DNA from: Hypanus sabinus
Lineage: Eukaryota
DNA length: 64,000 nucleotides
Assembly: GCF_030144855.1 (NCBI RefSeq)
Contig: NC_082706.1
Coordinates: 106,578,001 to 106,642,000, forward strand
Direction of reading: 5' to 3'
The position numbers were made by a program, and so were the translations under genes. Every line of letters begins with the position of its first letter. Position 1 is the stretch's first letter. Below, piece after piece: positions 3,768 through 36,834 of the stretch. The notes beneath the pieces were generated by a model. The model was given only the letters and a program-made list of their open reading frames with translations, ran no database searches and was not told the DNA's origin.

Positions 3768-3855
3768 ATAGACAATAAACAATAGGTGCAGAAGTAGACC
3801 ATTTGGCCCCTCGAGTCTGCACCGCCATTCTGAGATCATGGCTGATCATTCACTA

Positions 3856-6800: not shown

Positions 6801-6883
6801 ACCCTCTGGATCTGGATCCCTGCCCCCTGCACATCTAGTTTAACCCCCCCCTCCCCGAACAGCACTGGCAAACACTCCTGCAA
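3856..6883 (-). pseudogene. CR1 ORF2 (APE endonuclease + reverse transcriptase), broken into three ORFs
   Basis: YLNARS..ITETW (6380..6883), VMGDFN, SPGPDGLHP, QHGFTKGKSC (5006..6343), DFQKAFD, GVPQGSVL, FADD (3856..4992). Confidence 0.9.
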
Positions 6884-7781
6884 GAATGTTAGTACCCCTC
6901 CGGTTCAGATGTAGACCGTCCCTTCGAAATAGATCCCAATGTCACTGGAACAAAGACCAATTATCCAAAAACCTGAACCCTTCCTTCCTGCACCATGCTC
7001 TCAGCCTCGTACTAATGTGCATAATCATTCTATTCTTCGCCTCACTCGCAGGTGGCACAGGTAGCAATCCCGAGATCTTCACCCTGGAGGTCCTGCCTTT
7101 CAGCTTCACTCCTAACTCCCTGAACTCTCTAAGCAGGACCCCCTCACTCGCCTTACCTACATCATTGGTCCCTACATGGACCACTACATCTGGGTTCATG
7201 CCCTCATTCTCAAGAATAGCCTGCACCCGATCTGAGATGTCCCGGACCCTGGCACCAGGGAGGCAACATACCATCCAAGACTCCCGATCTGCCCCACAAA
7301 ATCTCCTATCTGCCCCCCTAACTATAGAATCCCCTAAAACTATCGCTCTCTTCTCTTCCCTCCTCCCCTTTCTAGTTGAGGGTTCAACCTCTGTGCCAGA
7401 GGCAGGACCACTACAACTCATTCCTGGTAGGTCAACCCCATCAACAGTATCCAGTACGGTAAACTTATTGTTAATGGGAATGGCCGCAGGGGTGCACTGC
7501 TCTCTCTGCCTGCTCCCCCTGCCTCTCTGGACCGTCACCCATCTGCCTACTTCTTGGTTTTTTGGTGTGACTACCTCCTGATAACTCCTATCTATCTCTG
7601 CTTCTGCCTCCCGAATGATCCGTAGTTCATCCAGCTCCAGCTCCAACTCCCTAACTCGGGCTGATAGCACCTGCAGCTGGACGCACCTCTTGCAGGTGTA
7701 GTCATCAGGGACAACTGTGTTGACCCTGACTTCCCACATACTGCATACGGAGCACACCACTGCTCTGACTGTCTCCCCCAT
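6836..7781 (-). pseudogene. CR1 ORF1 (Cys-rich N-terminus + SGNH esterase domain) with one in-frame premature stop at ~6942
   Basis: CSVCSMWEV..DYTCKRC; AIVLGDSIVRG, VHVGTND, and after the TGA the same frame continues HWDLFRRDGLHLN (SGNH blocks I, III, V). Confidence 0.85.
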
Positions 7782-12890: not shown

Positions 12891-15800
12891 CTTAATAGAC
12901 AAGGGACAATAGACAATAGGTGCAGAAGTAGACCATTCGGCCCTTCGAGCCTGCACCACCATTCTGAGATCATGGCTGCTCATCTACTATCAATACCCGG
13001 TTCCTGCCTTGTCTCCATATCCCTTGATTCCCTTATCCATAAGATACCTATCTAGCTCTTTCTTGAAAGCATCCGGAGAATTGGCCTCCACTGTCTTCTG
13101 AGGCAATGCATTCCACACCCCCACAACTCTCTGGGAGAAAAAGTTTTTCCTTAACTCTGTCCTAAACGACCTACCCTTTATTCTTAAACCATGCCCTCTG
13201 GTACTGGACTCTCCCAGCATCTAAAACATATTTCCTGCCTCTATCTTGTCCAACCCCTTAATAATCTTATATATTGCAATCAGATCCCCTCTCAATCTCC
13301 TTAATTCCAGCGTGTACAAGCCCAGTCTCTCTAACCTCCCTGCGTAAGACAGTCCGGACTTCCCAGGAATTTACCCTGTGAATCTACGCTGCACTTCCTC
13401 TACAGCCAGGGTGTCCTTCCTTAACACTGGAGACCAAAACTGTACACAATACTCCACATGTGGTCTCACCAGGGCCCTGTACAAATGCAAAAGGATTTCC
13501 TTGCTCTTGTACTCAATTCCCTTTGTAATAAAGGCCAATATTCCATTAACCTTCTTCAATGCCTGCTGCACTTGCTCATTCACCTTCAGTGACTGATGAA
13601 CAAGATCTCTTTGTATTTCTCCCTTACCTAACTCTACACCGTTCAGATAATAATCTGCCTTCCTGTTCTGACTCCCAAAGTGGATAACCTCACACTTATT
13701 CACATTAAATGTCATCTGCCAAGTATCTGCCCACTCACCCAGCCTATCCAAGTCACCCTGAATTCTCCTAACATCCTCATCACATGTCACACTGCCACCC
13801 AGCTTAGTATCATCAGCAAACTTGCTGATGTTATTCTCAATGCCTTCGTCTAAATCATTGATATAAATCGTAAACAGCTGTGGTCCCAATACCGAGCCCT
13901 GTGGCACCCCACTAGTCACCACCTGCCATTCCGAGAAACACCCATTCACCGCTACCCTTTGCTTTCTATCTGCCAACCAGTTTTCTATCTATGTCAATAT
14001 CTTCCCCCCAATGCCATGAGCTCTGATTTTACCCACCAATCTCCTATGTGGGACCTTATCAAATGCCTTCTGAAAATCGAGGTACACTACATCCACTGGA
14101 TCTAACTGTCTAATTGTCTACCTTCCTGGTTACATCCTCGAAAAACTCCAATAGATTAGTCAAGCATGATTTGCCCTTGGTAAATCCATGCTGGCTCAGC
14201 CCAATCCTATCACTGCTATCTAGATATGCCACTATTTCATCTTTAATAATGGACTCTAGCATCTTTGCCACTACTGATGTTAGGCTGACAGGATGATAGT
14301 TCTCTGTTTTCTCCCTCCCTCCTTTCTTAAAAAGTGGGATAACATTAGCCATTCTCCAATCCTCAGGAACTGATCCTGAATCTAAGGAACATTGGAAAAT
14401 GATTACCAATGCATTCACAATTTCCAGAGCCACCTCCTTTAGTACCCGTGGATGCAGACCATCTGGACCTGGGGATTTGTCAGCCTTCAGTCCCATCAGT
14501 CTACTCATCACCATTTCCTTCCTAATGTCAATCGGTTTCATTTCCTCTGTTACCCTATGTCCTTGGCCCATCCATACATCTGGGAGATTGCTTGTGTCTT
14601 CCCTAGTGAAGACAGATCTAAAGTACTTATTGAATTCTTCTGCCATTTCTCTGTTTCCCATAACAATTTCACCCAATTCATTCTTCAAGGGCCCAACATT
14701 GTTCTTAACTATCTTCTTTCTCTTCACATACCTAAAAAAGCATTTGCTATCCTCCTTTATATTCCTGGCTAGCTTGCGACTGTACCTCAATTTTTCTCCC
14801 CATATTGCCTTTTTAGTTAAGTTCTGTTGTTCCTTAAAAATTTCCCAATCATCTATCTTCCCACTCACCTTAGCTCTGTCATACTTCTTTATTTTAATAT
14901 TATACAATCTCTGACTGCCTTTGTCAACCACTGTGGCCCCATTACCCCCTTTGAATCCTTCCTTCCCCGGGGGATGAACTGATTTTGTACCTTGTGCATT
15001 ATTCCCAAGAATACCTGCCATTGCTGTTCCACTGTCTTTTCTGCTAGGATGTCCATCCAGTCAACTTTGACCAGCTCTTCCCTCATGGCTCCATAGTTTC
15101 CCCTGTTCAACTGCAACACTGACACCTCCGAGCTGCCATTATCCTTCTCAAATTGCAGATAAAAACTTATCATATTATGATCACTACCTCCTAATGGCTC
15201 TTTACTGCAAGATCGCTTATCAATTCCTGTTCATTACATAACACTAAATCCAGAATATTCTTGTCCCTGGTCGGCTCTCGTACAAGCTGTTCGAAGAATG
15301 CATCCCGTAGGCACTCTACAAACTCCCTATCCTGGGGTCCAGCACCAACCTGATTCTCCCAGTTCACCTGCCTGTTGAAATCCCCCATAACTACTGCGAC
15401 ATTACCTTTGCCACATGCCAATGTTAACTCCCTAATCAACTTGCACCCAATATCCATGCTACTGTTTCGGGGGCTGTAGACAACACCCATTAGGGTCTTT
15501 TTGCCCTTACTGTTCCTCAGTTCTATCCACACAGACTCTGCTTCTCCTGATCCTATGTCCCCCCTTGCAAAGGACTGAATCTCATTCCTCACCAACAGGG
15601 CCACCCCACCCCCTCTGTCCCTACGATAGCACGTATACCCTTGTACATTCATTTCCCAGGTCTGATTTCCCTGCAGCCATGTTTCCGTTATCCCAACAAC
15701 ATCATAGTTAGCCATTCGCACCTGAGCTTCAAGCTCATTGGCCTTATTTCTGACACTTTGTGCATTCAGATATAGAATTTTTAGCCCATTTCTCCTCTCT

Positions 15801-15930
15801 CTGTTTAAATTGCTGCCTATTGTGCTTAACCCAGCTCCTCAAACTCCCATCGGGCTATACGCCCCTAGAATTTTGTCATCCTTCCTAAATTTACTTATTC
15901 TTTCTGCACATTTAACTCCATGTTCCGACA

Positions 15931-16344
15931 TAAGGAGTCCATTTAGAATGTGCTGACACAGAAAGAACGTGCAAAGCAACTTGCAGGGCAACGTATAAAC
16001 CAATTTGCAAAATCAGGATGAAACAATAGCTTGCTGATTAAAGAAGCGATACGGGTAACGGGAAGACATGCTTAACGGTTGAACAATAACGGTGTTAATG
16101 CGCTGAGGCTGATAAGTGGGCCAAAGGGGTAATCACATTTGTAATTTTGTAATGAGATTAAAGAAGAATGTCTGCACCTCACATGGGTGCAACTCACAAA
16201 GTCGTAAACAAGTAGGGTATAAAAAACTGTGCAAAGTGTAATTCGGCACTCAATCTAGCAGGAGCTGGTTGGGTCCGACTCTGCAGACTCGAAAAATAAA
16301 GTTTACCGTTCTGCAAATTGCTGAGACTCAGTGTGTTTCTGACA
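15931..16344 (+). repeat. 5' LTR (414 bp; lacks the first 16 bp present in the 3' LTR)
   Basis: Matches 21258-21671 with one difference seen (position 7); TATAAA 16218, AATAAA 16295, ends ..TGACA. Confidence 0.97.
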
Positions 16345-16347
16345 ACG

Positions 16348-16365
16348 TGGGGGCTCGTCCGGGAT
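16348..16365 (+). promoter_or_regulatory. Primer-binding site, tRNA-Pro
   Basis: TGGGGGCTCGTCCGGGAT, the 18-nt MLV-type Pro PBS, 3 nt after the LTR-terminal CA. Confidence 0.95.
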
Positions 16366-16550
16366 CCACACTCCGGCCGCGGTGGACACGGGGAAGGACA
16401 TCGGAGACGGTGCACCCCGCCGAGTTTGGCGGTCCCTGACTCCTTGCTCGTCGCTCCAGCGCGGCTTGAGCGAGTGATATCCGGACAGCGCAGAGCGGTA
16501 AACGGGGAGAAGGGGACAGTACCTGGTACTGGAAGTCCCCAGGACGCACC

Positions 16551-16558
16551 GGGTAAGT
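16551..16558 (+). promoter_or_regulatory. Probable retroviral major splice donor
   Basis: GG|GTAAGT in the leader between the PBS and gag. Confidence 0.6.
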
Positions 16559-16725
16559 GCCTACTATTATAGTAGAAGGGTGCGGGAATAAGTAAGGACG
16601 GAGAAGACCGGGATCGCTACCCGGGGGTCCTCCTGATAAAAGTCCTTGGGACGCACCGGGTAAAGTGCCTACTGTTGCAGTAGAAGGGTGCGGGATTAAG
16701 TAAGAGCGGAATAAGATGGGAGGGG

Positions 16726-19700
16726 GTGGCTCTAAAAAGAAAGAGGAGACGGAGAAGACCGGGACCATACCCGGGGGTTCCTCCTGATAGCCCCCTCGGT
16801 AGAATGTTTGAGAATTGGGGATGTGGAAGACTAAAAGGGAAACAAAAGAAAAAAATGATACAGTACTGTTTAATTTGGTCGAAACAGCCGATAGAAAAAC
16901 CTGCGGTCTGGTGGCCGCGGCTTGGGTCTGAGGAGGATTGGGTACGACAAGCCTTAAACATTTACGTTAATTCAAAACCAAATGTAAAACCGGAAGAAAT
17001 TACTTATGCTTTTTGTTGGGCTCCCTGGCCAGGAGTAACAACAAAGAGTTTTAAATTGGGCATTAAAGGGGAGCGGAAGTGGGACCCACTCGATCATTTA
17101 CCCCCTCCCTATGTCCAGCCTTCTGCGCCCCTTGCGGGAGCAGAGGGAGGACGTGAAGAAAGTGAAAAAACAGAAGAAATAGACCCGGAGAGGGAAGAGA
17201 GGGATGTTAGGGAAAAAGCAAAAGCAAGGATTGAAACAAGGAGTGTGACAGGAGCAGATAAGAAAAAGAAAGACGAATTAAAAAAGGAAGAGGTACAGCT
17301 GTGTCCCCTTCGAGAGGTTCCAATGGGAGGAGAACGGGGAGGAACAGGATTTGTAAACGTCCCTCTGACAAGTACCGAAGTACGAGGATTTAAGAAAGAT
17401 ATGAAAACTTTATTAGAAGATCCAATGGGACTGGCAGAACAGTTGGATCAATTCTTAGGACCTAATGTTTACACTTGGGAAGAAATGCATGCGATTATGG
17501 GAACGCTATTTTCTGCACAAGAGAGGCAAATGATACGACAAGCTGCAATATCAATTTGGGGAAGGGAACAGCCGAATGAGTTACCGGGGGACCGGAAATT
17601 TCCAGTAAACGACCCACAGTGGGACAAACAAGCAGAAGAGAGAAGACGGCAATATCCCATTGCCATGGAAGGGAGGAGGGGATTACAACCTGTAATTGAG
17701 ACATTAGTATCAGATGGACTCCTGGAAGAATGTATGTCACCCTTTAATACCCCCATCCTACCGGTCCGAAAGCCCGACGGCACGTATCGAATGGTTCAAG
17801 ATCTGAGAGGCTTAAATGCGGTAGTCCAAACACGATACCCGGTAGTGCCTAACCCCTATACATTAATGAGCAAAATACCTCCTGAACATGAATGGTTCAG
17901 TGTGATAGATCTAAAAGATGCCTTTTGGAGTTGCCCGTTGGAGGAAGGTAGCCGAGATATGTTCGCATTTGAATGGGAAAATCCCTTCACTGGGCGGAAG
18001 AAGCAACTCCGGTGGACCGTCTTGCCCCAAGGGTTCACGGAGTCCCCAAACCTATTCGAACAGGTACTGGAGCAAGTATTGGCTGGATTTCATTGTACCG
18101 AAAAGAACCAACTATTACAGTATGTCGATGACCTACTACTATCGGGACCAGCAGAGGAGGTAGTGCGAGACGATACTATAAGACTCCTGAATTACCTAGG
18201 AGAAAAAGGATTGCGGGTGTCCAAGAAGAAACTGCAATTTGTCGAGAAGGAAATAACATATCTCGGACACAGAGTCAGTAAAGGGCACCGCCAAATAACC
18301 CCAGAAAGAATAGCGGGAATAACTAAAATACCGCTTCCCAGGACAAAGAAGGAAATAAGACAATTTCTGGGCTTAGTGGGCTATTGCCGGATTTGGATAG
18401 AGAATTATACCTCCCTGGTGAAGTTTATGTACGACAAATTGACAAAGGAAAACCGGGGAATAATCAGCTGGACCGAAGAAGAACAGAAGTTCAGGAAAAT
18501 AAAAGGGCAACTAATTCGGGCCCCGGTATTAACACTGCCAGCACTGGAAAAACCCTTTCAGCTGTATGCAACAAACAATGAAGGAACTGCGTTAGGAGTA
18601 CTAACCCAAGAAAAAAGAGGAAAGCGGCAACCTGTGGCCTTTTTATCAAAAATGTTAGACCCGGTATCCCGGGGATGGCCGACGTGCATACAAGCTGTAG
18701 CGGCAGCAGCCGTACTAGTAGAAGAAGCACGGAAATTAACCTTTGGGGGAAGAATGACGGTGTATACCCCGCACTCCGTTAGCACTCTCTTAGCCCAAAA
18801 AGCTCAGCGGTGGTTGACGGACTCTCGCATACTGAAATACGAAACCATTCTGATGGTCGGGGATGATTTAAGCTTTGAAAAGAACAATAGTTGTAACCCG
18901 GCACAGTTCTTATACGGGGAATCAACAGGGGAGGAAACCGAGCATAACTGCGTGGAGCTAACAGACCTTCAGACAAAAAGTAGGGAAGATCTACAAGGAG
19001 TTCCCCTAATCGAAGGCGAGGAACTATATATCGACGGCTCCTCCAGATGCATCAATGGGGTACGACACAGTGGATATGCTATTATAAACGGGAGGACTAG
19101 GGAGACGGTGGAGTCCGGCCGGCTCCCGGGTAATTGGTCAGCCCAGTCTTGTGAACTATATGCCTTGCAGAGGGGACTGCAACTGTTAAGAAACAAAATA
19201 GGCACTATATACACCGATTCTAAGTATGCCTATGGAGTGGTACACACCTTCGGAAAGATTTGGAAAGAACGGGGGTTGATAACAGCCAGGGGAAGGGAAT
19301 TAGCTCACGAACAAATTATAAGCATGACTCTGGAAGCACTAACATTACCTCAAGAAATTGCAGTGGTACACGTTCCAGGACATCAACGAGGAACAGCCCC
19401 GGAAGCAATAGGAAACCGGCTCGCAGATGAAGAAGCCGAACGGGCAGCAATGGAAAAAACGGTCCGACTTCTAACCCTGATACCAATAAGGGAAGGGCTT
19501 AACAAACTACCAGTCTTCACCCAAGTAGAAATAGACGCTATGAGCCAGCTGGGAGCCCGACAAACATCAGAAGGCGAGTGGAAGACCCCCGACGGACGGC
19601 AAGTACTGAATAAGGAAGTAACTCGTCATATACTGCAACAACTACACCAACAAAGCCATTGGGGAGTGCAAGCTATGTGCGACACTATCCTAAGGGACTA

Positions 19701-20670
19701 TGTTTGTAAAGGGATATTCACACTAGCTCAACAGGAGGTGTGGGGCTGTTACACCTGCCAAAAGGTAAACAAGAAAATGATGCGTGCCACCCATAAGGGG
19801 GGACAAACACTAGCCGTCCGACCGCTCCATCGGATCCAAATAGACTTTACGGAACTACCACAAGTTCAGAGATGGAAGTACCTGTTAGTAATTGTGGATC
19901 ACTTCACTCGGTGGGTGGAAGCATTCCCAACCACTAAAGCGGACGCCCCTACAGTGGCACGGATCCTATTAGAAAATATAGTCCCAAGATATGGAATAAT
20001 GGGGTCTATTGATTCAGATAGGGGAACACACTTTGCCTCAAAAACACACCAGCTAATCTGTGACGCCTTAGGAATCCAGTGGAAGCTGCACACCCCCTGG
20101 CACCCTCAGAGCTCAGGAAGAGTTGAGAGGATGAACAGTACTTTGAAGATGCAATTGACAAAACTAATGATGGAAACCAAGCTACCCTGGACCAAGTGTC
20201 TACCCCTGGCCCTACTAAGAATCCGCACGGCTCCTCGAAAAGATATAGGAGTATCCCCTTATGAAATGTTGTTTGGCCTTCCATATTGGAACAAGGTGGA
20301 GGGCTATCCTTCCCTGCAAGGGGGAGATGTCTTTGTAAGGGACTATTTACAGGCACTGTCTCGTTCTTTTGCAGAATTGCACAGGAAGGGGTTACTCGCA
20401 CAAACCCCACCTCTGGACTTCGCACTCCACCGAACTCAGCCCGGTGGCTGGGTCCTGATTAAGACTTGGAAGCCAGAGAAGTTACAGCCGCAGTGGGAAG
20501 GCCCATTCCAGGTGCTACTGACCACCGAAGCCGCAGTAAGGACAAAAGAAAAAGGGTGGACCCACGCCGCGAGAATCAAGGGACCCGTAAAGCCCGAAGA
20601 AGGTGCAGAATGGACTTGCGTCCAGGGAGAAGACCCGATGGTGCTAAAGCTCAAAAGACGGACAGAATGA
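16726..20670 (+). CDS. gag-pol: Gag(MA, partial CA)-RT-RNaseH-integrase fusion ORF, 1314 codons; no NC or protease
   Basis: SPLG..W (MA), PLTS..LLEDP..YTW..FP..DPQWD (CA NTD), then RQYP..SPFNTPILPV, QDLR, LPQG, YVDD; DGSS/E/TDSKY/ADEEA; HQQSH..CYTC, IDF/DSD/ERMN, GPF. Confidence 0.9.
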   Translation: MALKRKRRRRRPGPYPGVPPDSPLGRMFENWGCGRLKGKQKKKMIQYCLIWSKQPIEKPAVWWPRLGSEEDWVRQALNIYVNSKPNVKPEEITYAFCWAPWPGVTTKSFKLGIKGERKWDPLDHLPPPYVQPSAPLAGAEGGREESEKTEEIDPEREERDVREKAKARIETRSVTGADKKKKDELKKEEVQLCPLREVPMGGERGGTGFVNVPLTSTEVRGFKKDMKTLLEDPMGLAEQLDQFLGPNVYTWEEMHAIMGTLFSAQERQMIRQAAISIWGREQPNELPGDRKFPVNDPQWDKQAEERRRQYPIAMEGRRGLQPVIETLVSDGLLEECMSPFNTPILPVRKPDGTYRMVQDLRGLNAVVQTRYPVVPNPYTLMSKIPPEHEWFSVIDLKDAFWSCPLEEGSRDMFAFEWENPFTGRKKQLRWTVLPQGFTESPNLFEQVLEQVLAGFHCTEKNQLLQYVDDLLLSGPAEEVVRDDTIRLLNYLGEKGLRVSKKKLQFVEKEITYLGHRVSKGHRQITPERIAGITKIPLPRTKKEIRQFLGLVGYCRIWIENYTSLVKFMYDKLTKENRGIISWTEEEQKFRKIKGQLIRAPVLTLPALEKPFQLYATNNEGTALGVLTQEKRGKRQPVAFLSKMLDPVSRGWPTCIQAVAAAAVLVEEARKLTFGGRMTVYTPHSVSTLLAQKAQRWLTDSRILKYETILMVGDDLSFEKNNSCNPAQFLYGESTGEETEHNCVELTDLQTKSREDLQGVPLIEGEELYIDGSSRCINGVRHSGYAIINGRTRETVESGRLPGNWSAQSCELYALQRGLQLLRNKIGTIYTDSKYAYGVVHTFGKIWKERGLITARGRELAHEQIISMTLEALTLPQEIAVVHVPGHQRGTAPEAIGNRLADEEAERAAMEKTVRLLTLIPIREGLNKLPVFTQVEIDAMSQLGARQTSEGEWKTPDGRQVLNKEVTRHILQQLHQQSHWGVQAMCDTILRDYVCKGIFTLAQQEVWGCYTCQKVNKKMMRATHKGGQTLAVRPLHRIQIDFTELPQVQRWKYLLVIVDHFTRWVEAFPTTKADAPTVARILLENIVPRYGIMGSIDSDRGTHFASKTHQLICDALGIQWKLHTPWHPQSSGRVERMNSTLKMQLTKLMMETKLPWTKCLPLALLRIRTAPRKDIGVSPYEMLFGLPYWNKVEGYPSLQGGDVFVRDYLQALSRSFAELHRKGLLAQTPPLDFALHRTQPGGWVLIKTWKPEKLQPQWEGPFQVLLTTEAAVRTKEKGWTHAARIKGPVKPEEGAEWTCVQGEDPMVLKLKRRTE

Positions 20671-21211
20671 ACTTTGGGACTGTAATGTATATACTGCTAT
20701 TGTTGAGAAGCGCTGAAGGGGGATGTGATAAGTGCAGAACGACGGTAAGGGTGGGCATGACGGTTTTTCCAGGGTCCTTTGTATCACACTCGCATGTAAA
20801 CGAGAAATGTTATGACTACAACAAAAAGGAGGAGTATGTGGAAAGTTTAATCTAACCAACTGCTGCTTAAAGATAGATGACAACGGAAAGGTGGTTCAAA
20901 AAATATCAGATAAAATAAGGAAACTGGCCCACGTGCCGGTACAGACCTGGAAGCCGCTGGGGTATTGGGACTGGCTGGACGGATGGTTGAAAGGAGGCTG
21001 GTGGCGAACCGCTTTAGGGGTTATAGGAGGGGGATTGATGGTCCTCCTTCTGCTACCATGTCTGATCCCCTGCTTGCGGGAGCTAGTAGCTCGGGTGGCA
21101 AGACAAGTCATGCAACCAGGGGCCCCAGCTGATCCTGTTCAGGTACTCCTACAAAGGGAAATAGAGCTAGAGGAAGAAGCCTATGTAAACCCGTGGCAAA
21201 AGCCCAACTGA
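20667..21211 (+). pseudogene. env: env remnant: signal peptide + SU start fused out of frame to the TM C-terminal half
   Basis: ATG overlaps the pol stop (ATGA); MNFGTVMYILLLLRSAEG; from 20828 another frame reads [27 protein letters not shown]..hydrophobic anchor. Confidence 0.9.
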
Positions 21212-21222
21212 TAGCACATTCT

Positions 21223-21241
21223 AAAAAGAAAAAGGGTGGAT
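21223..21241 (+). promoter_or_regulatory. Polypurine tract
   Basis: AAAAAGAAAAAGGGTGGAT immediately before the 3' LTR TG. Confidence 0.9.
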
Positions 21242-21671
21242 TGAGAGAAATGATACTTAAGGAATCCATTTAGAATGTGCTGACACAGAAAGAACGTGCA
21301 AAGCAACTTGCAGGGCAACGTATAAACCAATTTGCAAAATCAGGATGAAACAATAGCTTGCTGATTAAAGAAGCGATACGGGTAACGGGAAGACATGCTT
21401 AACGGTTGAACAATAACGGTGTTAATGCGCTGAGGCTGATAAGTGGGCCAAAGGGGTAATCACATTTGTAATTTTGTAATGAGATTAAAGAAGAATGTCT
21501 GCACCTCACATGGGTGCAACTCACAAAGTCGTAAACAAGTAGGGTATAAAAAACTGTGCAAAGTGTAATTCGGCACTCAATCTAGCAGGAGCTGGTTGGG
21601 TCCGACTCTGCAGACTCGAAAAATAAAGTTTACCGTTCTGCAAATTGCTGAGACTCAGTGTGTTTCTGACA
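21242..21671 (+). repeat. 3' LTR (430 bp, complete)
   Basis: TGAGAGAAA...TTTCTGACA imperfect inverted termini; TATAAA 21545, AATAAA 21622. Confidence 0.97.
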
Positions 21672-24600
21672 TTTAACTCCATGTTCCGACAGACCATGTA
21701 TCTGTACATGTGTCCTTATCACTTGTTCCGCCTCTCCTTTCTCTGCTACACACTTAATATTCCAGAACCGTGTAGTCCCCACCTGTCCTTTATTCTTCAG
21801 CTCGCTATCCTCTCTCACATTCTGGATCCCTGCCCCCTGCAAATTTAGTTTAAACCCCCCCGAGCAGCACTAGCAAACTTTCCTACAAGAATGTTAGTAC
21901 CGCTCCGGTTCAGGTGTAAATCGTCCTGTCGGAACAGATCCCACCTTCCCTGGAACAAAGCCCAATTATCTAAAAACCTGAAGCCCTCCCTCCTGCACCA
22001 TCCTCTCAGCCACATATTAATCTGTATAATCCTTCTGTTCCTTATCTCACTCGCACATGGCACAGGTAGCAATCCTGAGATTGTTACCCTGGAGGTCCTG
22101 CCCTTCAGCTTCGCACCTACCTCCCTGAACTCACTACGCAGGACCCCCTCACTCATCCTACCCACATCGTTGGTCCCTATATGGACCACAACATCTGGTT
22201 TCTTGCCCTCCCTCTCGAGCATAACCTGCACCCGACTTGAGATATCCCAGTCCCCGGCACCAGGGAGGCAACATACCATCTGAGACTCCCAATCTTCCCC
22301 ACAAAATCTCCTATCTGCCCCCGACTATAGAATCCCCTATCACTACCGCTCTCTTCTCTTCCCTCCTCCCCTTCCTAGTCGAGGGTCCAATCTCAGTGCC
22401 AGAGACAGGACCACTGCAACTTGTTCCTGGTAGGTCATCCCCACCATCAGTATCCAAAACGGTATACTTACTGTTGATGGGAACAGCCGCAGGGGTGCTC
22501 TGCTCTCTCTGTCTGCACCCCCTGCCTCTCTTGACTGTCACCCATTTGCCTACCTCCTGTCTTTTCTTGATTTTACTTTATTAGAAGTGATAGCATTCAA
22601 GCCCTGCCACAACTGTTGAGTATTCTTCGTTGATTCAGGTTTAGTCTGGCAATGCCATTTTGCCCATAAGGAGGCTTTCCAGAGAATGTACCAGGACCTC
22701 TTGTAACTTTATAGGTCACCACACGTGAATGCCTCTGATCTGGCCCTCAGCAAATTGCTGATTTCATGATTCATACAAGGTTTCTGGCAGGAGAAGACTC
22801 TGAATGATTTTGTGGTGACACACTCGTCTACAACTATTTTTCTAAAGTCCAAAATGTAGGTGCACATTGAGCCTACATGGTGTAGGTGTATTTATTCAGA
22901 TCCATAGATGAGTCCCTAAAAATGGCCCCGTACACTCAAAGGAATTCCATATAGCAATAGCCACACATCTGCCTCCCTCGACCTCTTTGTTGTACTAATC
23001 TCTGGAAATTATATCCAGCTCCTTGATTTCCCTCCCTCATAGCTTGTGACATCTGCATATTGTCTTTCAGTGAATAATGTGCAAAGGTGTCCTGGGCCCT
23101 CTGAACATACACGCCTTGCAAACTCCCATCATTTGCAGGAAAGCTTCATTTGAACTAGCGAAGATGAAGTCATATTTTCTTCAGTTCATTCCCTTCAGCA
23201 ACAAGCATTTCATTGGATACTACAGTGGGGGTGGGGATAGAATGACCTATCAGTACACAGCAGCAGCAGCCAGGCCAATGGCAGTACAGCCAGCTCTGAG
23301 GCTCAGCAGTGAAGGGTAAAATCAAGTAGACAGACAGTGATAGGAGACTCAATAATTCAGGAACAAACAAGAGATTTGGTGGCCATGACAAAGATGCAGA
23401 ATGGTTTAACGAAAAATTCCTTGGCAGATGAGCCTTCCATGTGTCATCTGAGCATTCCTGTGACAATAATCTGATGAATAATGTATGAGTACTTCCTCCC
23501 CCTTCAATACCTCCTTCCCTGTCATGTCTAAATCAGTCGAATGCCAGAACATTCAGCTGCCAGTCCTGCCCCTCCTGTAACCATGTCTCAATAATGGTTT
23601 CAATATCATATCCACACATGGATCCATTCTCTATGTGCATCAGCCTCACCTACAACCCTTCTTGCCTTCCAATAGATGCAATTCAGAATACTTATCCACC
23701 ATGCTCAACCTTGCAGTTTCCATATCTGCTTAAAAACAAGAAATTCCACAGATGCTGGAAATACAAAGCAATATCCACAAAATCTTTGTTTGTAGTCATT
23801 ACATCTGTATTTTTTCCACAACCATTGCTGTCCTGCCACTCTGGATACCATCCCTCTTAAACATTAGTTTGAACACTTCCGAGCAGGATTAGCAAACCTT
23901 CCTGAAAGGATATTGGTTCCTCTCCAGTTTGGGTGAAACTGTCCTGTTTCCTGACATCCCACCTACCCTGGAATGAAGTTCAGTAATCCAAAAACTCTGA
24001 AGCCTTCCCCCATGCACCATCTGGTAAGCCACATTTTCAACTGCACTGTCCTCCTTATTTTTTGTCTCACTAGCATGGATAGCTTCCTGTGATCTCCATC
24101 TTGGGGGTCCTGTCTTTTAACTTTACAGTTTAGGCATCCGTTAGTCTCGTGAGACCATGGAGTTGCACCTTGGAAGGTTTCCAGGGCACAGGCCTAGGCA
24201 GGTTTGTATGGGAGACTGACAGTTGCTCAAGCTGCAAGCCTTCCCCTCCTCAAGCCACCGATGTTGTTCAAGGGAAGGGCACAAGGACCTAAGCAGCTTG
24301 GCACCGGTGTCATTGTAGAGCAATGTGTTGTTAAGTGCCTTGCTCACAGACACAACCACGCTGCCTCAGCTGAGGCTCGAACCATAACCTTCAGATCACT
24401 AAACCGATGCCTTATCCACTAGGCTATGTGCCAGCAGAAAAGAAAGTAATTTTACCTTCAGTAAAGAAAGAAGTTAGAAGAACTTAAGCTCGTAGAAGTT
24501 TATGAAATCACGAGGAATATAGTGGAGTTATAGCCTTTTCCCAGGATTGGAGAGTCCAAAACTAGAGGTCACTGATACAAGGTAATACAGAAGCAATTCA

Positions 24601-24954
24601 AAAGAGCCCTAAAAGATAATTTCTTTATGCAGAGGATAGTGAGCTGCCTGAGGAAGTGGTTGAGTTTGTGTATTTGTAATATTGAAGAGGTATTTGAAAG
24701 GGTACATGGAAGGAAAGGTATTAGAGGACAATGAGTCAAGTGTAGCAGCTGGAACTAGCAGGGAGAATGTGGTCATCATGGACCATTGGGGCCGAAGGGC
24801 CTATAATCCATACTCCGTTACTCAATGGTTCCATGAAATAAAAACATAAAATGCTTAAAATACTCAAATGGACAGATGGCATCTCTGTGAAAAGAAACAG
24901 AGTTAAGGGAAGTCAAAGATAGCATAGAAGCAAAAGAGAGGGCAGGAATTATGC

Positions 24955-25910
24955 TAGAACCATTGAACACTACAACACAGTACAGGCCCTTCAGCCCTCC
25001 ATGTTGTGCCGCCCCTTTTCATCCTTAAAAAAAAGTACTAAATCCACACCCCCATAACCCCTTCATTTTTCTTTCATCCATGTTCCTGTCCGAGAGGCTC
25101 TTAAATACCCCTAATGTTTTAGCCTCCACCACCAGCTCTGGCAAGTCATTCCAGGCACTCACAACCCTCTGTGTAAAAAACTTATCCCTGATGTCTCTCC
25201 TAAACTTCCCTCCCTTTATTTTGTACATATGCCCTCTGGTGTTTGCTATTGGTGCCCTGGGAAACAGGTGCTGATTATCCACCCTATCTCTGCCTCTCCT
25301 AATCTTGTAGACCTCTATCAAGTCGCCCCTCATTCTTCTATGCTCTAAAGAGAAAAGTCCCAGCTCTGCTAACCTTTCTTCATTTGACTTGTTCTCCAAA
25401 GCAGGCAACATCCTGGTAAATCTCCTCTGCACCCTCTCCATAGCTTCCACATCCTTCCTATAATGAGGTGACCAGAATTGAACTCAATACTCTAAGTGCA
25501 GTCTCACCAGAGATTTGTAGAGTTGCAACATGACCTCTCTACACTTGAACCCCTGTTAATGAAGCCTGGCACCTCATAGGTCTTCTTAACTAGCCTATCA
25601 ACCTGCACAGTGACCTTGAGGGATGTATGGACAGGAATCCCAAAGTCCCTTTGTTCAACCACACTCTTAAGTAACTGACCATTAATCCTGTACTCAGTCT
25701 TCTGGTTTGTCCTTCCAAAATGCATCACCTCACACTTATCCGAATTGAACTCCATCTGCCATTTTTCTGCCCAGCTCTGCAGCCTGTCTATATCCTCCTG
25801 TAAACATCGACAACGTGCAGCTCCATCCACAACTCCTCCAATCTTCGTGTCATCCGCAAACTTACTCACCCAACCTTCCGCCTCTACATCCGGGTCATTT
25901 ATAAAAATCA
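24955..25910 (-). mobile_element. 5'-truncated CR1 3' fragment (copies at ~35795-36755 and ~57100-58055; related piece ~43445-44145)
   Basis: ORFs 25025..25450 and 25504..25911 (FADD, VQRRFTRMLP). Confidence 0.85.
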
Positions 25911-25992
25911 CAGATTTTTCTCGGAGAAGACAATAAAAATAAGGCTGAAAGAGAAAACTGATCAGATATGTTTAAATGGCTGAGCTGACTCA

Positions 25993-28900
25993 TAGAAACA
26001 TAGAAAACCTATAGCCCAATACAGGCCTTTCAGCCCAGAATGCGGTGCCAAACATGTACCTCCTTTAGAAACTACCTATGGTTACTCATAGCCCTCTATT
26101 TTTCTAAGCTCCATGTACCTATCCAAGAGTCTCTTAAAAGACCCTTTCATCTCTGCATCCACCACCATTGCCGGCAGCCCATTCCACCCTCTGTGTAAAA
26201 AACTTACCCTTTATATCTCCTCTGTACTTACTTCAAAGCGCATTAAAACTGTGCTTTCTCATGCAAGGCGTTTCAGCTCTGGGAAAATGCCTCTGACTAT
26301 CCACACGATCAATGCCTCACCTCATCTTGAACACCTCTGTCAGGTCACCTCTCATCCTCCTTCGCTCCAAGGAGAAAAGCCCAAGTTCATTCAACCTATT
26401 CTCATAAGGCATGCTCTCCAATCCAGGCAACATCCTTGTAAATCTTTTCTGAACCCTTTCTATGGTTTCCACATCCTTCCTGTAGTTAGGTGACCAGAAC
26501 TGAGTACAATACTCCAAGTGGGGTCACACCAGGATCCTATATAGCTGCAACATTACCCCTCAGCTTTTAAACTCAGTCCCACAGTTGATGAAGGCCAATG
26601 CACCATATGCCTTCTTGACCACAGAGTCAATCTGTGTAGCAGCTTTGAGTGTCTTATGGACTCAATCCCCAAGATCCCTCTGATCCTCCACACTGCCAAG
26701 AGTCTTACCATTAACACTATATTCTGCCATCATATTTGACCTACCAAAATGAACCACCTCGCACTTTTCTGGGTTTAATTCCATCTGCCAATTCTCAGCT
26801 TAGTTTCTCATCTTATCAATGCCCGGCTGTAACCTCTGACAGGCCTCCTCACTCTCCAAAATACCCCCAACATTTGTGTCATCAGCAAATTTACTAACCC
26901 ATTCCTCCACTTCCCTTACAAGTCATTTATAAAAATCACAAAGACTAGAGGTCTCAGAACAGATCCCTGAGGCACGCCATTGGGCACTGACCTTCATGCA
27001 GAATATGACCCATTTACAACCACTCTTTGCCTTCTGTGGTCAAATCAATTCTGGATCCACAAAGCAATGTCCCCTTGGATACCATGCCTCCTTAACATCT
27101 CTATGAGCCTTGCATTGGGTACCTTATCAAATTCCTTGCTGAAATCCATATACTCTAAATCTCCGGCTCTACCTTTATCAATGTGTTTAGTCACATCCTC
27201 AAAAAATGCACTCAGGCTCGTAAGGCACAACCTGCCTTTCACAAAGTCATGCTGACAATTCCTAATCATATTAGCCTCTCCAAATGTTCATAAATCCTGC
27301 CTCTCAGGATCTTCTCTATCAAATTACCAACCACTGAAGTATGACTCACTGGTCTATAATTTCCTGGGCTATCCCTACTCCCTTTCTTGAATAAGGGAGC
27401 AATATCTGCAACACTTAACCCTCCAGAATCTCTCCTGTTCTCATTGATGATGTGAAGATCAATGCCAGAGGCTCAGCAATCTCCTCCTTCACCTCCCACA
27501 GTATCCTGGGGCAGATCTCATCCTGTTCCGGTGACTTATCCAAATGAATGCTTTCCAAAAGCTCCAGAACATCCTCTTCCTTAATATCTACATGCTCAAG
27601 CTTTTCAGTCTACTGGAAGTCATCCCTACATTCACCAAGATCCTTTTCCATAGTGAATACTGAAGCAAAGTATTCATTAAATACCTCTGCTATCTCCTCT
27701 GGTTCCACACACCCTTTTCCATTGTCGCACTTGATTGGTCCTACTCTCTCACATCTTATCCTCTGGGTTCTTCATATATTTGTAGAATGCCTTGGGGGTT
27801 TCCTTAATCCTGTCTGTCAAGGGCTTCTCCTGGCCCATTCTGGCTCTGCTAATTTCATACTTAAGCTCCTTCCTGCTAGCCTTATAACCGGCAAGATCTC
27901 TATCATACTTACTTTTTTTGAATCTTTCATAAGCTCTTCCTTTATTATTGACTAGGTTTATAACAGCCTTTGTACACCACAATTCCTGTACCCTACCAGA
28001 CATTCCGTCATTTTGAAATGTATCTATGCAGAACCCCACAAAAATATCCACTGAACATTTGCAACATTTCTTTCGTACATTTCCCTGAGAACATCTGTTT
28101 TCAATTTATGATTCCAAGTTCCTGCCTGGTAGCCTCTTATTTCCCCTTACTCCAATTAAACACTTTCCTAACTTGTCTGTTCCTATCCCTCTCCAACGCT
28201 ATGGGAAAGGAGATAGAATTGTAATCACTATCTCCAAAAAGCTCTCCCACTGAGGGATCTGACATCTGAACAGGTTAATTTCCCAGCACCAGATCTAGTA
28301 CAGCCTCTCCTCTTGTAGGCTTATCTACATATTGTGTCAAAAAACCTTCCCAAACACAACTAGCATATTCTACCCCATCTAAAACCCTCGCTCTAGGGAG
28401 ATGCCAATCTATATTTTGGAAATTAAAGTCTCCCACAACAACAACCCTGATATTAACACATCTTTCCAGAATCTGTCTCTCTATCTGCACCTCAATATCC
28501 CTGTTACTATTGGGCGGTCTGTAAAAAACACCCAGTAGAGTTATTGACCCCTTTCTGTTCCTAACTTCCACCCACAGAGAGTCCGTAGACAATTCCTCCA
28601 AAACTTCCTCCTTTTCTGCAGCCGTGATCAATAGTGCCATGCCCCCACCTCTTTTGCCTCCCTCCCTGTCCTTTCTCAAACATAAAAAGCCTGGTACCTG
28701 AAGTATCTATTTCTGCCCGAGCCATCCAAGTCTTTCTAATGGCCACAACATCATAGCTCCAATTACTGATCCACGCTCTAAGCTCATCCACTTTGTTCAT
28801 AATACTCCTTGCATTAAAATAGACACATCTCAAACCACAAGTCTGAGCATGTCCCTTCTCTATCACCTGATTATCCTCCCTCTTGCACTAACTCCAAACT

Positions 28901-29716
28901 TTCACTATTTGTCAGCCAACCACCTCTTCCTCCGTCACTTGAGTTCTTTTCCCACCCCTCAGCAATTCTACTTTAAACTTTTCACAATAGCTTTTGAAAC
29001 GTCCCCGCCAAGATATTGGTCCTCCTGAGATTCAAATGCAATCCGTCCATTTTGTACACGTCATACCTGCCACAAAAGAGGTCCCAATGATCTAGAAATC
29101 TGAAATCCTGCCCTCTGTTCCAATCTTCCAGCCACACATTTATACTCCACCTCATTCTATTCCTATACTCTGTCACGTGACACAAGCAGTAACCCTGAGA
29201 TTACTATCTTTGAGGTCGTGCTTATCAACTTCTTTCCTAACTCCCTGCAGTCTGTTTTCGGGACCTCCTCCCTTTTCCTACCTATGTCGTTGGTACCAAT
29301 ACGTACCACAACCTCTGGCTGTTCTCCTTCCCACTTCAGGATATCGTGGAGACGTTCAGAAACATTTCGGACCCTGGCACCTGGGAGGCAAACTACCATC
29401 CGTATTTCTTCCCTGCATCCACAGAATCGCCTATCTGACCCCCCTAACTCCAGAGTCCCCTATCACTGCTGCCATCCTCTTCCTTTCCCTACCCGTCTAA
29501 GCCACAGGGCCAGACACTGTGCCAGAGGCACAGCCACTGTTGCTTCCCCCAAGTAGGCTGTCTCCCCCACCGTATTCTACACAGAAAACCTACCTGCGCT
29601 CGACCTGTATTCGCCGAAGACCCGTTGAGCCAAAGCCTTCCCACTCTGTCGTCCGCTCCTCCCACTCCCGCTCTATAAAGCTGACTTCTTTTAAACTCTT
29701 CTCGCTGTTCTCACTG
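25993..29716 (-). mobile_element. Near full-length CR1 of unit 2 (type-B marker), ~340-bp ORF1 deletion relative to the unit-3 copy
   Basis: Tail, RT, EN and ORF1 (GTNDIG) fragments; flanks GCTGACTCA (25984-25992) / GCTGGCTCA (29717-29725). Confidence 0.85.
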
Positions 29717-32053: not shown

Positions 32054-35000
32054 CTTCCTCAGCGCAGAGGTCGCACGAATCATTTCCGACTCAGCGAATT
32101 CGCAGCTTCTGCCATAAACTCCATCACCTTTCTTCGGATAAACAACTCTATCCAAATCTACGAAAGTTACCCGATCAGCCTCATCGATAGGTTATACATT
32201 TTCACCTGTCGCCCGAGAAGAGGGAGTTGGAAGAATATTTCACCAGGGTACGAGAGCCCAGACTAGGGCAGATAGTTTTAAAGTGAGAGGGGAAAGATCT
32301 ATAAGAGACCTGTGTGGTATGTTTTTCAGGGAAAGGGCGGTGGGTACAGGCAACAAATTGCCAGAGGAAGAGTTAGAGGCAGGAACCAATTAGGGATTTA
32401 AAAATCATTTGGGCATCGACATGGACAAGAAAGGTTCCGAGAAATACAGCTGAAATGCATGTAAACAGAACTGGTATAAGTGGGTAACTTGCTCGGTAAG
32501 GACGAGTTGGGCCGAAGGGCCTGATTCTGTGCTGTAGATCTCAATGGCTCTTAAAATTACTTCAAATCTCTGCACGGTCGCCACTAACGCTCCTTTATTC
32601 CGTGGAAAACTTTCCCAACCTATCCGACCTCGAAAACTAAATCCTCCAATCCCAGAAACGGACCTTCTGCATCCTCTCTAGTTCAATCACAGACAAATAT
32701 TTAAGCAATAAATACTGAGAAAATGAGGTGTAAAAACCTTTAAAGTGACTCCATATGTTTTGGGAACACTTCAGTGATGGGGCAAGTGAAGTTATACCTT
32801 TTGGTACAAGAGCCTGATTGTGGAGGGGTAATACCTGTCCCTGAACCTGGTGGTGTGAGTTCTGTAGCTCCTGTACGTGCTTCCTGACTGGAGCAGTGAG
32901 AGGAGAGCATGACCTGCAATGTGGAGAGGGTTTCCAATGTGGTGATTCTGATGACGGATGTTGCTTTCCTTAAAACATCACTTCTTAAAACATTTCCTCA
33001 CTGTGGATTTAAGTGATACTGGACTTTAGTCATTGCGGCAGGTTACCATGTTCTTATTAGGCCCCAGAATAAGTGAAGTCTGATTGAAGCAGATGGGTAC
33101 ATCAGTCAAAGTGAAAGGTTAAAGATCAGTGAACAGTCCAGCCAGTTGATTAGCACTGGTCTTTAGTTCTTGGCCAGGTATCATCTCTCAGCTGGATGAT
33201 TTTCATGGGTTCATCTTCCTGAAGGCTGCCTGCACATCAGTCTCGGAGACTAAAATCACTCGATCATCTAGTGCTGTGAGTGCTTCTGATGGTTCCTCCA
33301 TGTTTTGATGGTCAAAGCAAGCATATAATGCATTGTGTTCATCTGGAAGTGAGCCCTGGTGTCACCTATTGTCACTTGATTTTACTTTATTAGAAGAGAT
33401 AGCATTCAAGCCCTGCCACAACTATTGAATATCCTTCGTTGATTCAGGTTTAGTCTGGCATTGCCACTTTGCCTGTGATGTGGCTTTCTGGAGACTGTAT
33501 CAGGACCTCTTGTAACTTTCTTGGTCACCATACGTGAATGCCTCTGATCTGGCCCTCAGCAAATTGCTGATTTCATGATTCATACAAGGTTTCTGGCAGG
33601 AGAAGACCATGATGTAGGTGCACATTGAACCTACATGGTGTAGGTGTATTTATTCAGATCCATAGACGAGTCCCTAAAAATGGCCCCGTCCACTCGAAGG
33701 AATCCCATACAGCAATAGTCGCTCATCTGCCTCCCTCGACCACCTATTTGTTGTCCTAAACTCTGGAAATTATATCCACCTCCTTGATTTGCCTCCCTCA
33801 TAGCTTGTGATATCTGCATATTGTCTTTCAGTGAATAACGTGCAAAGGTGTCCTGGGCCCTCTGAATGTACACACCTTGCAAACTCCCATCATTTGCAGG
33901 AAAGCTACTATTAAGCTAGTTAGGATGAAGTTGTATTTTCTTCAGTTCATTCAGTATGGCCGACTCTGAGGCTCAGCAGTGAAGGGTAAAATCAGGTAGA
34001 CAGATAGTGTTAGGAGACTCAATAATTCAGGAATGAACAAGAGATTTGGTGGCCGTTAAAAAGACACAAACTGGTGTGCTGCCTCCCAAGTGCAAGGATT
34101 AAGGATATCTCAGAGAAGCTGCAGGAGAGGTAGGGTAACCAGACAAAGGCCATGGTGCACGTTGATGCCAATGACATTGGTGAAAATGGGGAGGCGATTT
34201 TGCACATTGAGTATAAGGAGTTAGGGAATCCATTCTTTATTCCAGTTTAACAAAAAATTCCTTGGTGAATGAGCCTTCTGTGTGTCATCTGAGCATTCCA
34301 CTGACAATGATCTGATGAATAATGTATGAATACTCCCTCCCCCTTCAATACCTCCTTCTCTGTCAGGTCTAAATCAGTCGAATGCCAGAACATTCAGCTG
34401 CCAGTCCTGCCCCACCTGTAACCATGTCTCAATAATGGTTTCAATATCATATCCACACATGGATCCATTCTCTATGTGCATCAGCCTCACCTACAAATCT
34501 CCCTGTCTTCCAATAGATGCAACTCAGAATACTTATCCACCATGCTCAATCTTGCAGTTTCCATATCTGCTTAAAAACAAGAAATTCCACAGATGCTGGA
34601 AATACAAAGCAATATCCACAAAATCTTTGTTTGTAGTCATTACATCTGTATTTTTTCCACAACCATTGCTGTCCTGCCACTCTGGATACCATCCCTCTTA
34701 AACATTAGTTTGAACACTTCCGAGCAGGATTAGCAAACCTTCCTGAAAGGATATTGGTTCCTCTCCAGTTTGGGTGAAACTGTCCTGTTTCCTGACATCC
34801 CACCTACCCTGGAATGAAGTTCAGTAATCCAAAAACTCTGAAGCCTTCCCCCATGCACCATCTGCTAAGCCACGTTTTCAACTGCACTGTCCTCCTTATT
34901 TTTTGTCTCACTAGCATGGATAGCTTCCTGTGATCTCCATCTTGGGGGTCCTGTCTTTTAACTTTGCAGTTTAGGCATCCGTTAGTCTCGTGAGACCATG

Positions 35001-36834
35001 GAGTTGCACCTTGGAAGGTTTCCAGGGCACAGGCCTGGGCAGGTTTGTATGGGAGACTGACAGTTGCTCAAGCTGCAAGCCTTCCCCTCCTCAAGCCACC
35101 GATGTTGTTCAAGGGAAGGGCACAAGGACCTAAGCAGCTTGGCACCGGTGTCATTGCAGAGCAATGTGTTGTTAAGTGCCTTGCTCACAGACACAACCAC
35201 GCTGCCTCAGCTGAGGCTCGAACCATAACCTTCAGATCACTAAACCGATGCCTTATCCACTAGGCTATGTGCCAGCAGAAAAGAAAGTAATTTTACCTTC
35301 AGTAAAGAAAGAAGTTAGAAGAACTTAAGCTCGTAGAAGTTTATGAAATCACGAGGAATATAGTGGAGTTATAGCCTTTTCCCAGGATTGGAGAGTCCAA
35401 AACTAGAGGTCACTGATACAAGGTAATACAGAAGCAATTCAAAAGAGCCCTAAAAGATAATTTCTTTATGCCGAGGATAGTGAGCTGCCTGAGGAAGTGG
35501 CTGAGTTCGTGTATTTGTAATATTGAAGAGGTATTTGAAAGGGTACATGGAAGGAAAGGTGTTAAACGACTATAAGTCAAATGCAGCAGCTGGAACTAGC
35601 AGGGAGAATGTGGTCATCATGGACCATTGGGGCCGAAGGGCCTATAATCCATACTCCGTTACTCAATGGTTCCATGAAATAAAAACATAAAATGCTTAAA
35701 ATACTCAAATGGACAGATGGCATCTCTGTGAAAAGAAACAGAGTTAAGGGAAGTCAAAGATAGCATAAAAGCAAAAGAGAGGGCAGGAAATATGATAGAA
35801 CCATTGAACACTACAACACAGTACAGGCCCTTCAGCCCTCCATGTTGTGCCGCCTCTTTTCATCCTTAAAAAACAGTACTAAATCCACACCCCCATATCC
35901 CCTTCATTTTTCTTTCATCCATGTTCCTGTCTGAGAGGCTCTTAAATACCCCTAATGTTTTAGCCTCCACCACCAGCTCTGGCAAGTCATTCCAGGCACT
36001 CACAACCCTCTGTGTAAAAAAACTTACGCCTGATGTCTTCCCTAAACTTCCCTCCCTTTATTTTGTACCTATGCCCTCTGGTGTTTGCTATTGGTGCCCT
36101 GGGAAACAGGTGCTGACTATCCACCCTATCTCTGCCTCTCCTAATCTTGTAGACCTCTATCAAATCGCCCCTCATTCTTCTACACACTAAAGAGAAAAGT
36201 CCCAGCTCTGCTAACCTTGCTTCATATGACTTGTTCTCCAAAGCAGGCAACATCCTGGTAAGTCTCCTCTGCACCCTCTCCATAGCTTCCACATCCTTCC
36301 TATAACGAGGTGAACAGAATTGAACTCAATACTCTAAGTGCAGTCTCACCAGAGATTTGTAGAGTTGCAACATGACCTCTCTACTTTTGAACCCCTGTTA
36401 ATGAAGCCTGGCATCTCATAGGTCTTCTTAACTACCCTATCAACCTGCGCAGTGACCTTGAGGGATGTATGGACAGGAATCCCAAAGTCCCTTTGTTCAA
36501 CCACACTCTTAAATAACTGACCATTAATCCTGTACTCAGTCTTCTGGTTTGTCCTTCCAAAATGCATCACCTCACACTTATCCGAATTGAACTCCATCTG
36601 CCATTTTTCTGCCCAGCTCTGCAGCCTGTCTATATCCTCCTGTAAACATCGACAACGTGCAGCTCCATCCACAACTCCTCCAATCTTCGTGTCATCCGCA
36701 AACTTACTCACCCAACCTTCCGCCTCTACATCCGGGTCATTTATAAAAATCACAGATTTTTCTCGGAGAAGACAATAAAAATAAGGCTGAAAGAGAAAAC
36801 TGATCAGATATGTTTAAATGGCTGAGCTGACTCA

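What the first reader, a model, noticed from the sequence alone, without database searches (positions are those of the whole stretch)
15911..21691. Provirus with one normal end, one clipped end and a 20-bp target duplication
Seen: TTTAACTCCATGTTCCGACA occurs directly left of the 5' LTR (15911-15930) and directly right of the 3' LTR (21672-21691). The 3' LTR is complete (TG..CA after the PPT), but the 5' LTR lacks exactly its first 16 bp (TGAGAGAAATGATACT), and the only LTR mismatch lies 7 bp from that junction. Established: concerted integrase action gives 4-6-bp duplications and intact TG..CA ends; one-ended integration with host repair of the other end, giving long duplications and terminal loss, has been described for HIV-1 under integrase inhibition. 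Inference: this is a germline fossil of a half-site integration (U5 end by integrase, U3 end by host repair).
Basis: partly seen in the sequence, partly recalled or inferred. Interest (0 to 1): 0.75.

Follow-up and report, generated by a model that had tools for sequence, protein, structure and literature searches.

The report
Retrovirus junction likely overwritten by host
A young, internally deleted retrovirus sits in a LINE repeat, and its odd left end, where 16 viral bases are swapped one-for-one for 16 host bases, is likely an ordinary insertion blurred by mixing the filled and empty alleles during genome assembly rather than a rare one-ended integration.

Summary
In detail: a 20-bp direct repeat flanks the provirus, the 5' LTR lacks 16 bp that do belong to the LTR, and the only LTR mismatch lies 7 bp inside. 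The left junction is therefore a length-neutral, in-register swap of LTR bases 1-16 for the host's next 16 bases, and the lone mismatch (15937) equals this locus's own host base in the same register. One-ended integration predicts neither, and the clipped end has no microhomology, while the 'normal' end does. Best reading (0.55): an ordinary insertion whose left junction was overwritten by empty-allele sequence in the assembly consensus. Rivals: one-ended integration (0.25), in-register recombination between alleles (0.12), homology-primed capture (0.08). No genome was held, the four runs laid show neither junction, and the family's duplication length was not measured, so nothing is proven. 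Even if real, long duplications with a clipped U3 end are published (XMRV, HIV-1; long duplications in germline HERV-K). The scan's notes held no earlier report of this.

The parts
12905..15930 (-). Host CR1-type LINE, part left of the insertion (endonuclease and RT side)
   Evidence: 85.9% identical over 3046 bp to the copy at 3771-6791; Exo_endo_phos E 2e-13 at 15194-15838
15901..15910 (+). Host bases just before the target that resemble the U5 end (3 exact, 9 of 9 LTR bases with one gap)
   Evidence: present in the paralogous LINE, so host-derived; 3 of 3000 random sites score as well (post hoc)
15911..15914 (+). Inferred true 4-bp target duplication, left copy
   Evidence: arithmetic: 5741+20 = 5757+4; 4 bp is the general ERV1 value; inferred
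15915..15930 (+). 16 host bases standing in register where LTR bases 1-16 would be
   Evidence: column table: 13 columns host-only, 3 shared, 0 LTR-only
15931..16344 (+). 5' LTR, 414 bp, lacking its first 16 bp
15937..15937 (+). Only LTR-LTR mismatch; equals host base 21698 in the same register
   Evidence: the LINE family reads a different base there (loose ends)
16348..16365 (+). Primer binding site, tRNA-Pro type (assignment recalled, not from a call)
   Evidence: sequence
16684..20670 (+). Open frame joining a partial gag to RT-RNase H-integrase across an internal deletion near 17640; gag start at 16716 is out of frame with it
   Evidence: integrase HHCC, D-D(35)E and GPF present; no protease or zinc knuckle among the 8 Pfam families hit
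20667..21211 (+). env remnant: N-terminal stub, then a broken junction to the C-terminal part of TM
   Evidence: TLV_coat E 2e-4, below cutoff; syncytin-2 E 0.002
21223..21241 (+). Polypurine tract plus 2 bases
   Evidence: sequence
21242..21671 (+). Complete 3' LTR, 430 bp, TG..CA
21672..21691 (+). Right copy of the 20-mer, the start of the host right flank
21672..22565 (-). Host CR1-type LINE, part right of the insertion (ORF1 esterase side)
   Evidence: 85.0% to 6811-7562; Lipase_GDSL_2 E 6e-11

Best explanation
A young, internally deleted class I endogenous retrovirus lies inside a CR1-type LINE, and its left junction is an in-register swap of the first 16 LTR bases for the next 16 host bases, likely made when the assembly consensus mixed the filled and empty alleles of what was probably an ordinary insertion with a 4-bp duplication. 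Shown: the swap is length-neutral if the duplication was 4 bp, and the one further difference (15937) also carries the host base in that register. Inferred: the family makes 4-bp duplications; the insertion is polymorphic (LTRs 413/414 identical); empty-allele reads aligned a short way past the breakpoint and outvoted the LTR in columns 1-16 and 23. The software step responsible is not identified.
For: Insert length is 5741+20 = 5757+4. In-register column calls for 40 positions are host for 1-16, LTR for 17-22, host at 23, LTR after, with no column matching neither source. Column 23 matches this locus's own right flank, not the LINE family (loose ends), pointing to the locus's empty allele as donor. 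Under my own flat assumption of a 0-60 bp duplication, hitting 4 has chance 1/61 (4-6: 3/61); a sole mismatch in the first 10 of 414 bases that equals the host base has chance about 0.8-1.4%. Left junction microhomology is 0 bp. ERV1 elements generally make 4-bp duplications (PMC4299795, passage); 13 of 15 XMRV sites did (PMC2857682, passages). Polishing is documented to introduce haplotype switches and to lower identity of most TEs in one test (PMC12016036, passages).
Against: No raw reads of the source animal were available, and no contig joining the left flank to a full LTR start, nor this locus's exact empty allele, is among the 14 joints listed. The family's duplication length was not measured, and PMC4299795 itself says the length is not consistent within classes. 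The right junction shows no overwrite, although the U5-like host bases would hide only about 9-10 bases of one. The rest of the provirus looks accurately assembled (1328-codon open frame). A-to-G is a common transition, so column 23 may be chance. PMC12016036 does not describe this exact junction artefact, and my search for one found none. The U5/flank similarity (3 of 3000) stays a coincidence under this reading.
Confidence: 0.55

Rival explanations
1. One-ended integration: integrase joined the U5 end; the U3 end, perhaps already short through plus-strand priming downstream of the purine tract (my inference), was joined by host repair, duplicating 20 bp.
For: U5 ends exactly at CA and only the 5' LTR is clipped. 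Direct precedent without any drug: XMRV clone C-3, 273-bp duplication with a 5-bp U3 deletion in the left LTR, 1 of 15 sites (PMC2857682, passages). HIV-1 aberrant proviruses have one normal and one often truncated end with host duplication (PMC5041404, passages and Discussion). Germline HERV-K has 8 loci with 13-450 bp duplications (PMC5488345, Results and Discussion).
Against: Needs two coincidences (20-16=4; column 23 equals host). The published aberrant end usually, not always, has short homology and duplications are usually much larger; here homology at the clipped end is 0 bp.
Confidence: 0.25
2. Real in-register conversion: after a normal insertion, recombination between the filled and empty chromosomes (or a template switch between the two similar junctions) carried host sequence 16 bp into the LTR and was resolved there; motor-driven branch migration would keep the register (recalled biochemistry).
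For: Explains length neutrality and can use the junction similarity, 13 of 14 bases once the 4-bp core is counted.
Against: Needs passage through 13 mismatches in 16 bases; no pairing at the return point; the isolated host base at column 23 needs patchy repair or chance; no such vertebrate case in one paper search (listing only).
Confidence: 0.12
3. Homology-primed or integrase-independent capture: the U5 end annealed to the look-alike host bases at 15901-15910 and primed copying, so the 'normal' end is the host-made one.
For: 3 bp exact and 9 of 9 gapped homology at the U5 junction; 3 of 3000 random sites score as well; fits the priming model in PMC5041404.
Against: The test was post hoc and one-sided; the clipped U3 end lacks CA and would have to be joined by integrase or end-joining; does not explain 20-16=4 or column 23.
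Confidence: 0.08

Closest known systems
XMRV clone C-3 provirus (PMC2857682)
   Same: Gamma-type provirus, left LTR clipped at U3, intact U5 end, long host duplication, no inhibitor involved
   Different: 273-bp duplication and 5-bp loss, not length-neutral; verified by cloning; somatic
Aberrant one-ended HIV-1/ASLV proviruses (PMC5041404)
   Same: One normal end, one truncated end, duplicated host DNA
   Different: Duplications usually hundreds to thousands of bp; short homology usually at the aberrant end, here absent there and present at the other end
HERV-K(HML-2) loci with long target duplications (PMC5488345)
   Same: Germline proviruses or solo LTRs flanked by 13-450 bp direct repeats, including 13 and 18 bp
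   Different: Class II; the sections read report no matched terminal LTR loss; authors also consider pseudo-duplications from rearrangement
Class I (ERV1, gamma-like) endogenous retroviruses of birds, reptiles and skate
   Same: Pol 55-66% identical to proteins from swallow, other birds, rattlesnake, lizard and little skate; same domain set
   Different: This copy lacks protease, the gag end and most of env, so it is non-autonomous; no tree was built
Haplotype-switch and overcorrection errors of assembly polishing (PMC12016036)
   Same: Bases of another haplotype written into a collapsed consensus, commonly in repeats
   Different: The paper's passages concern base-level errors, not false long target duplications at insertion breakpoints

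Membership tests
Class I (ERV1, gamma-like) endogenous retrovirus | Two LTRs with TG..CA ends, PBS and PPT | tested here: met
   (3' LTR complete; 5' LTR clipped in the assembly)
Class I (ERV1, gamma-like) endogenous retrovirus | Gag p30-type capsid, RT-RNase H-integrase order, MLV-type integrase C-terminus with GPF/Y | tested here: met
   Pfam Gag_p30 E 2.5e-4 (below cutoff), RVT_1, RNase_H, rve, MLVIN_C E 7e-8; GPF at codon 1273
Class I (ERV1, gamma-like) endogenous retrovirus | Gamma-type envelope TM | tested here: inconclusive
   only a remnant: TLV_coat E 2e-4, syncytin-2 E 0.002
Class I (ERV1, gamma-like) endogenous retrovirus | RT tree placement with gamma/epsilon retroviruses | not tested
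   no tree built; only similarity hits
Class I (ERV1, gamma-like) endogenous retrovirus | 4-bp target duplication in this family | not testable with these tools
   no genome held; no related loci with flanks found; contigs do not link both flanks
HERV-I / ERV3-like subgroup | RT and TM clustering with HERV-I, HERV-IP or ERV3 | not tested
   resemblance of the TM cysteine motif is recalled only; one search gave no usable feature
One-ended (host-completed) aberrant provirus | One end processed to CA and joined cleanly | tested here: inconclusive
   ends at CA, but the last 3 bases are shared with the host, so the join point is ambiguous
One-ended (host-completed) aberrant provirus | Other viral end truncated, host DNA duplicated beyond 4-6 bp | tested here: met
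   in the assembled sequence only
One-ended (host-completed) aberrant provirus | Short homology at the aberrant end (usual, not obligatory) | tested here: not met
   0 bp; criterion from PMC5041404
One-ended (host-completed) aberrant provirus | Junction present in single DNA molecules | not testable with these tools
   only contigs of other samples were available; none listed bridges it

The most novel reading that the evidence does not exclude
The junction is real and is a germline fossil of recombination between a provirus-bearing chromosome and its empty homologue that ran 16 bases into non-homologous DNA in register, so that a normal 4-bp duplication was lengthened to 20 bp at the exact expense of the LTR. 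Some short 'long duplications' of endogenous retroviruses would then be post-integration conversions, recognisable because duplication minus LTR loss equals the family's normal duplication.
Probability: 0.12. Interest if true: 0.6.

Novelty: not a real feature. Interest (0 to 1): 0.22.

Why it matters
If the best reading holds, it is a caution: collapsed assemblies can turn an ordinary polymorphic insertion into a false aberrant integration, and 'duplication minus LTR loss equals the normal duplication' is a quick way to flag such cases. If the junction is real and one-ended, it adds one germline example to a published class. Only the in-register conversion reading would be new biology.

Tried and rejected
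No genome is held, so family copies could not be collected. LTR-start pattern in metagenome contigs: 0 hits. U5-end 16-mer in viral contigs: 9 hits, 9 of 9 limited to 16-22 bases of match, chance. Integrase query in metagenome contigs: 1 of 77 candidates passed, a 32-residue match with no LTR similarity, discarded. RT query in viral contigs: 0 of 6. Best run held only 0.70 of the words; 4 of 20 runs were laid, all contigs; tables were cut (40 of 262 letter rows, 24 of 506 loose ends, 32 of 7574 pieces shown), so lack of a bridging contig is no evidence either way. Rejected: the 16 bp are not LTR; a tandem 20-mer already in the host family; overwrite by LINE paralogues rather than the empty allele (family bases differ at the 20-mer end and at column 23); LINE-mediated insertion of viral RNA (U3 at the 5' end, U5 at the 3' end and no A-tail). 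Earlier scan notes: none nearby, none by sequence, two unrelated LINE-tail notes by words. A paper on CA-independent U3 integration was not held; only its title was seen in a reference list. PMC4724089 and PMC10435555 (passages) gave no duplication length for this group. No read simulation was run, so which assembly step could do this remains open. Supplements of the papers were not opened; those of PMC5041404 and PMC5488345 may list junction-level cases that bear on the length-neutral test.

Full report
Observation. The 20-mer stands at 15911-15930 and 21672-21691 and nowhere else in the window; 0 of 100 shuffles gave two matches. With three shared bases before each copy the repeat is 23 bp. 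The 3' LTR is 430 bp (21242-21671), TG..CA, behind a purine tract; the 5' LTR (15931-16344) is the same sequence minus the first 16 bp, with one mismatch at 15937/21264.

What the element is. Between the LTRs lie a primer binding site (tRNA-Pro type, recalled), a 1328-codon open frame with Gag_p30, RT, RNase H, integrase and MLV-type integrase C-terminus hits, and an env remnant. The integrase keeps HHCC, D-D(35)E and GPF. The capsid end, nucleocapsid and protease are missing through a deletion near 17640, gag's start is out of frame, and env is broken, so the copy is non-autonomous. Pol is 55-66% identical to its best hits, class I-type proteins named from birds, reptiles and the little skate (120 of 464 hits listed). 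No tree was built, so the subgroup is open. The host is a CR1-type LINE on the minus strand, split between its esterase-like ORF1 and its endonuclease. The host animal is probably a cartilaginous fish (my inference from recalled repeat types; not tested).

No genome is held. Of 20 runs listed, the best held 0.70 of the words; I laid 4, all contigs. The 16 bp are LTR: one X15 contig runs through them from env, and one X3 contig starts exactly at the TG. The host family has a single 20-mer-like sequence: in 4 of 4 runs, loose ends at 15927 continue into sequence like the right flank, and one X17 contig joins 15927 to 21714. No listed contig bridges either junction, and none of the 14 joints is this locus's exact empty allele or a full-length left end; the tables were cut and these samples need not hold the locus, so this decides nothing.

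The insert measures 5741+20 = 5757+4: a full-length provirus plus a 4-bp duplication has exactly the length seen. Four bp is the general ERV1 value (PMC4299795, passage, which also warns of exceptions) and was found at 13 of 15 XMRV sites (PMC2857682, passages). Laid in that register, the observed bases are host in columns 1-16, LTR in 17-22, host in 23 and LTR afterwards; no column of 40 matches neither source. Column 23 is the lone LTR mismatch, and it matches this locus's own right flank, where the LINE family has another base. Under a flat 0-60 bp prior of my choosing, the first coincidence has chance 1/61 (3/61 for 4-6 bp), the second about 0.8-1.4%, higher if repair near a junction is error-prone. 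The clipped junction has 0 bp of microhomology; the CA end has 3 bp exact and 9 of 9 LTR bases with one gap, matched by 3 of 3000 random sites (post hoc). The look-alike bases are host, since the paralogous LINE has them.

Mechanism. Shown: a length-neutral, in-register replacement, conditional on a 4-bp family duplication. Inferred: its cause. A column-wise mixture of two alleles is what a read consensus gives when empty-allele reads are aligned a short way past a breakpoint; near-identical LTRs make polymorphism plausible; polishing is known to switch haplotypes and damage TE sequence (PMC12016036, passages). I give this 0.55. Against it: the right junction is untouched, the rest of the copy looks clean, no tool step was identified, and two searches found no paper on this exact artefact (listings). 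One-ended integration (0.25) has real precedent: XMRV clone C-3 has a 273-bp duplication with a 5-bp U3 loss, and HIV-1 aberrant proviruses have one normal and one truncated end, though usually with much longer duplications and short homology at the aberrant end (PMC5041404, passages and Discussion). It needs both coincidences. Real in-register conversion between alleles (0.12) explains the register but must cross 13 mismatches in 16 bases; one search showed no vertebrate case (listing). Homology-primed capture of the U5 end (0.08) explains the look-alike bases only.

Novelty. Long duplications at germline proviruses are published: 8 HERV-K loci of 13-450 bp among 451 estimated duplications, two validated against empty alleles (PMC5488345, Results and Discussion). 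So even a real one-ended event would be a new member of a known kind. On the best reading the odd junction is not a real feature, and the provirus is an ordinary young defective class I element. Raw reads of the source animal settle it. Interest 0.22.

Noticed in passing
window 17640-17669: The gag-pol deletion junction is held by contigs in two other organisms' runs (X3, X15), with contigs branching exactly there and depth rising after it (496 to 642; 19 to 32), so the deleted form looks like a multi-copy non-autonomous lineage spread in trans.
   Followed up: partly
window 21254 (3' LTR start): One X3 contig shows an LTR variant about 15 bases longer near U3 position 12, close to where the 5' LTR is clipped.
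   Followed up: no
window 15500-15930 and 21690-22100: In run X16 a small residual depth (about 15-55 at most listed sites) carries the window's own bases in both flanks beneath a depth of 1e4-1e5 from paralogues, hinting that an orthologous LINE copy exists in that organism; whether it is empty was not shown.
   Followed up: no
window 16533-16789: The leader holds two imperfect tandem repeats (about 70 and 43 bases, spacing 108 and 151); X3 and X15 contigs skip 59 bases there.
   Followed up: no
window 23404-29577 and 34245-40423: A 6.2-kb segment is duplicated in direct orientation at 95.4% identity.
   Followed up: no
window 60830-63251: An AT-rich, frameshifted L1-like ORF2 (endonuclease-RT appearance by eye) unlike the CR1-type copies that fill the rest of the window.
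   Followed up: no
window 21692-21820: About 130 bases of the host right flank have no counterpart in the in-window paralogue but match the high-copy family in the runs, so two LINE subfamilies differ between ORF1 and ORF2.
   Followed up: partly
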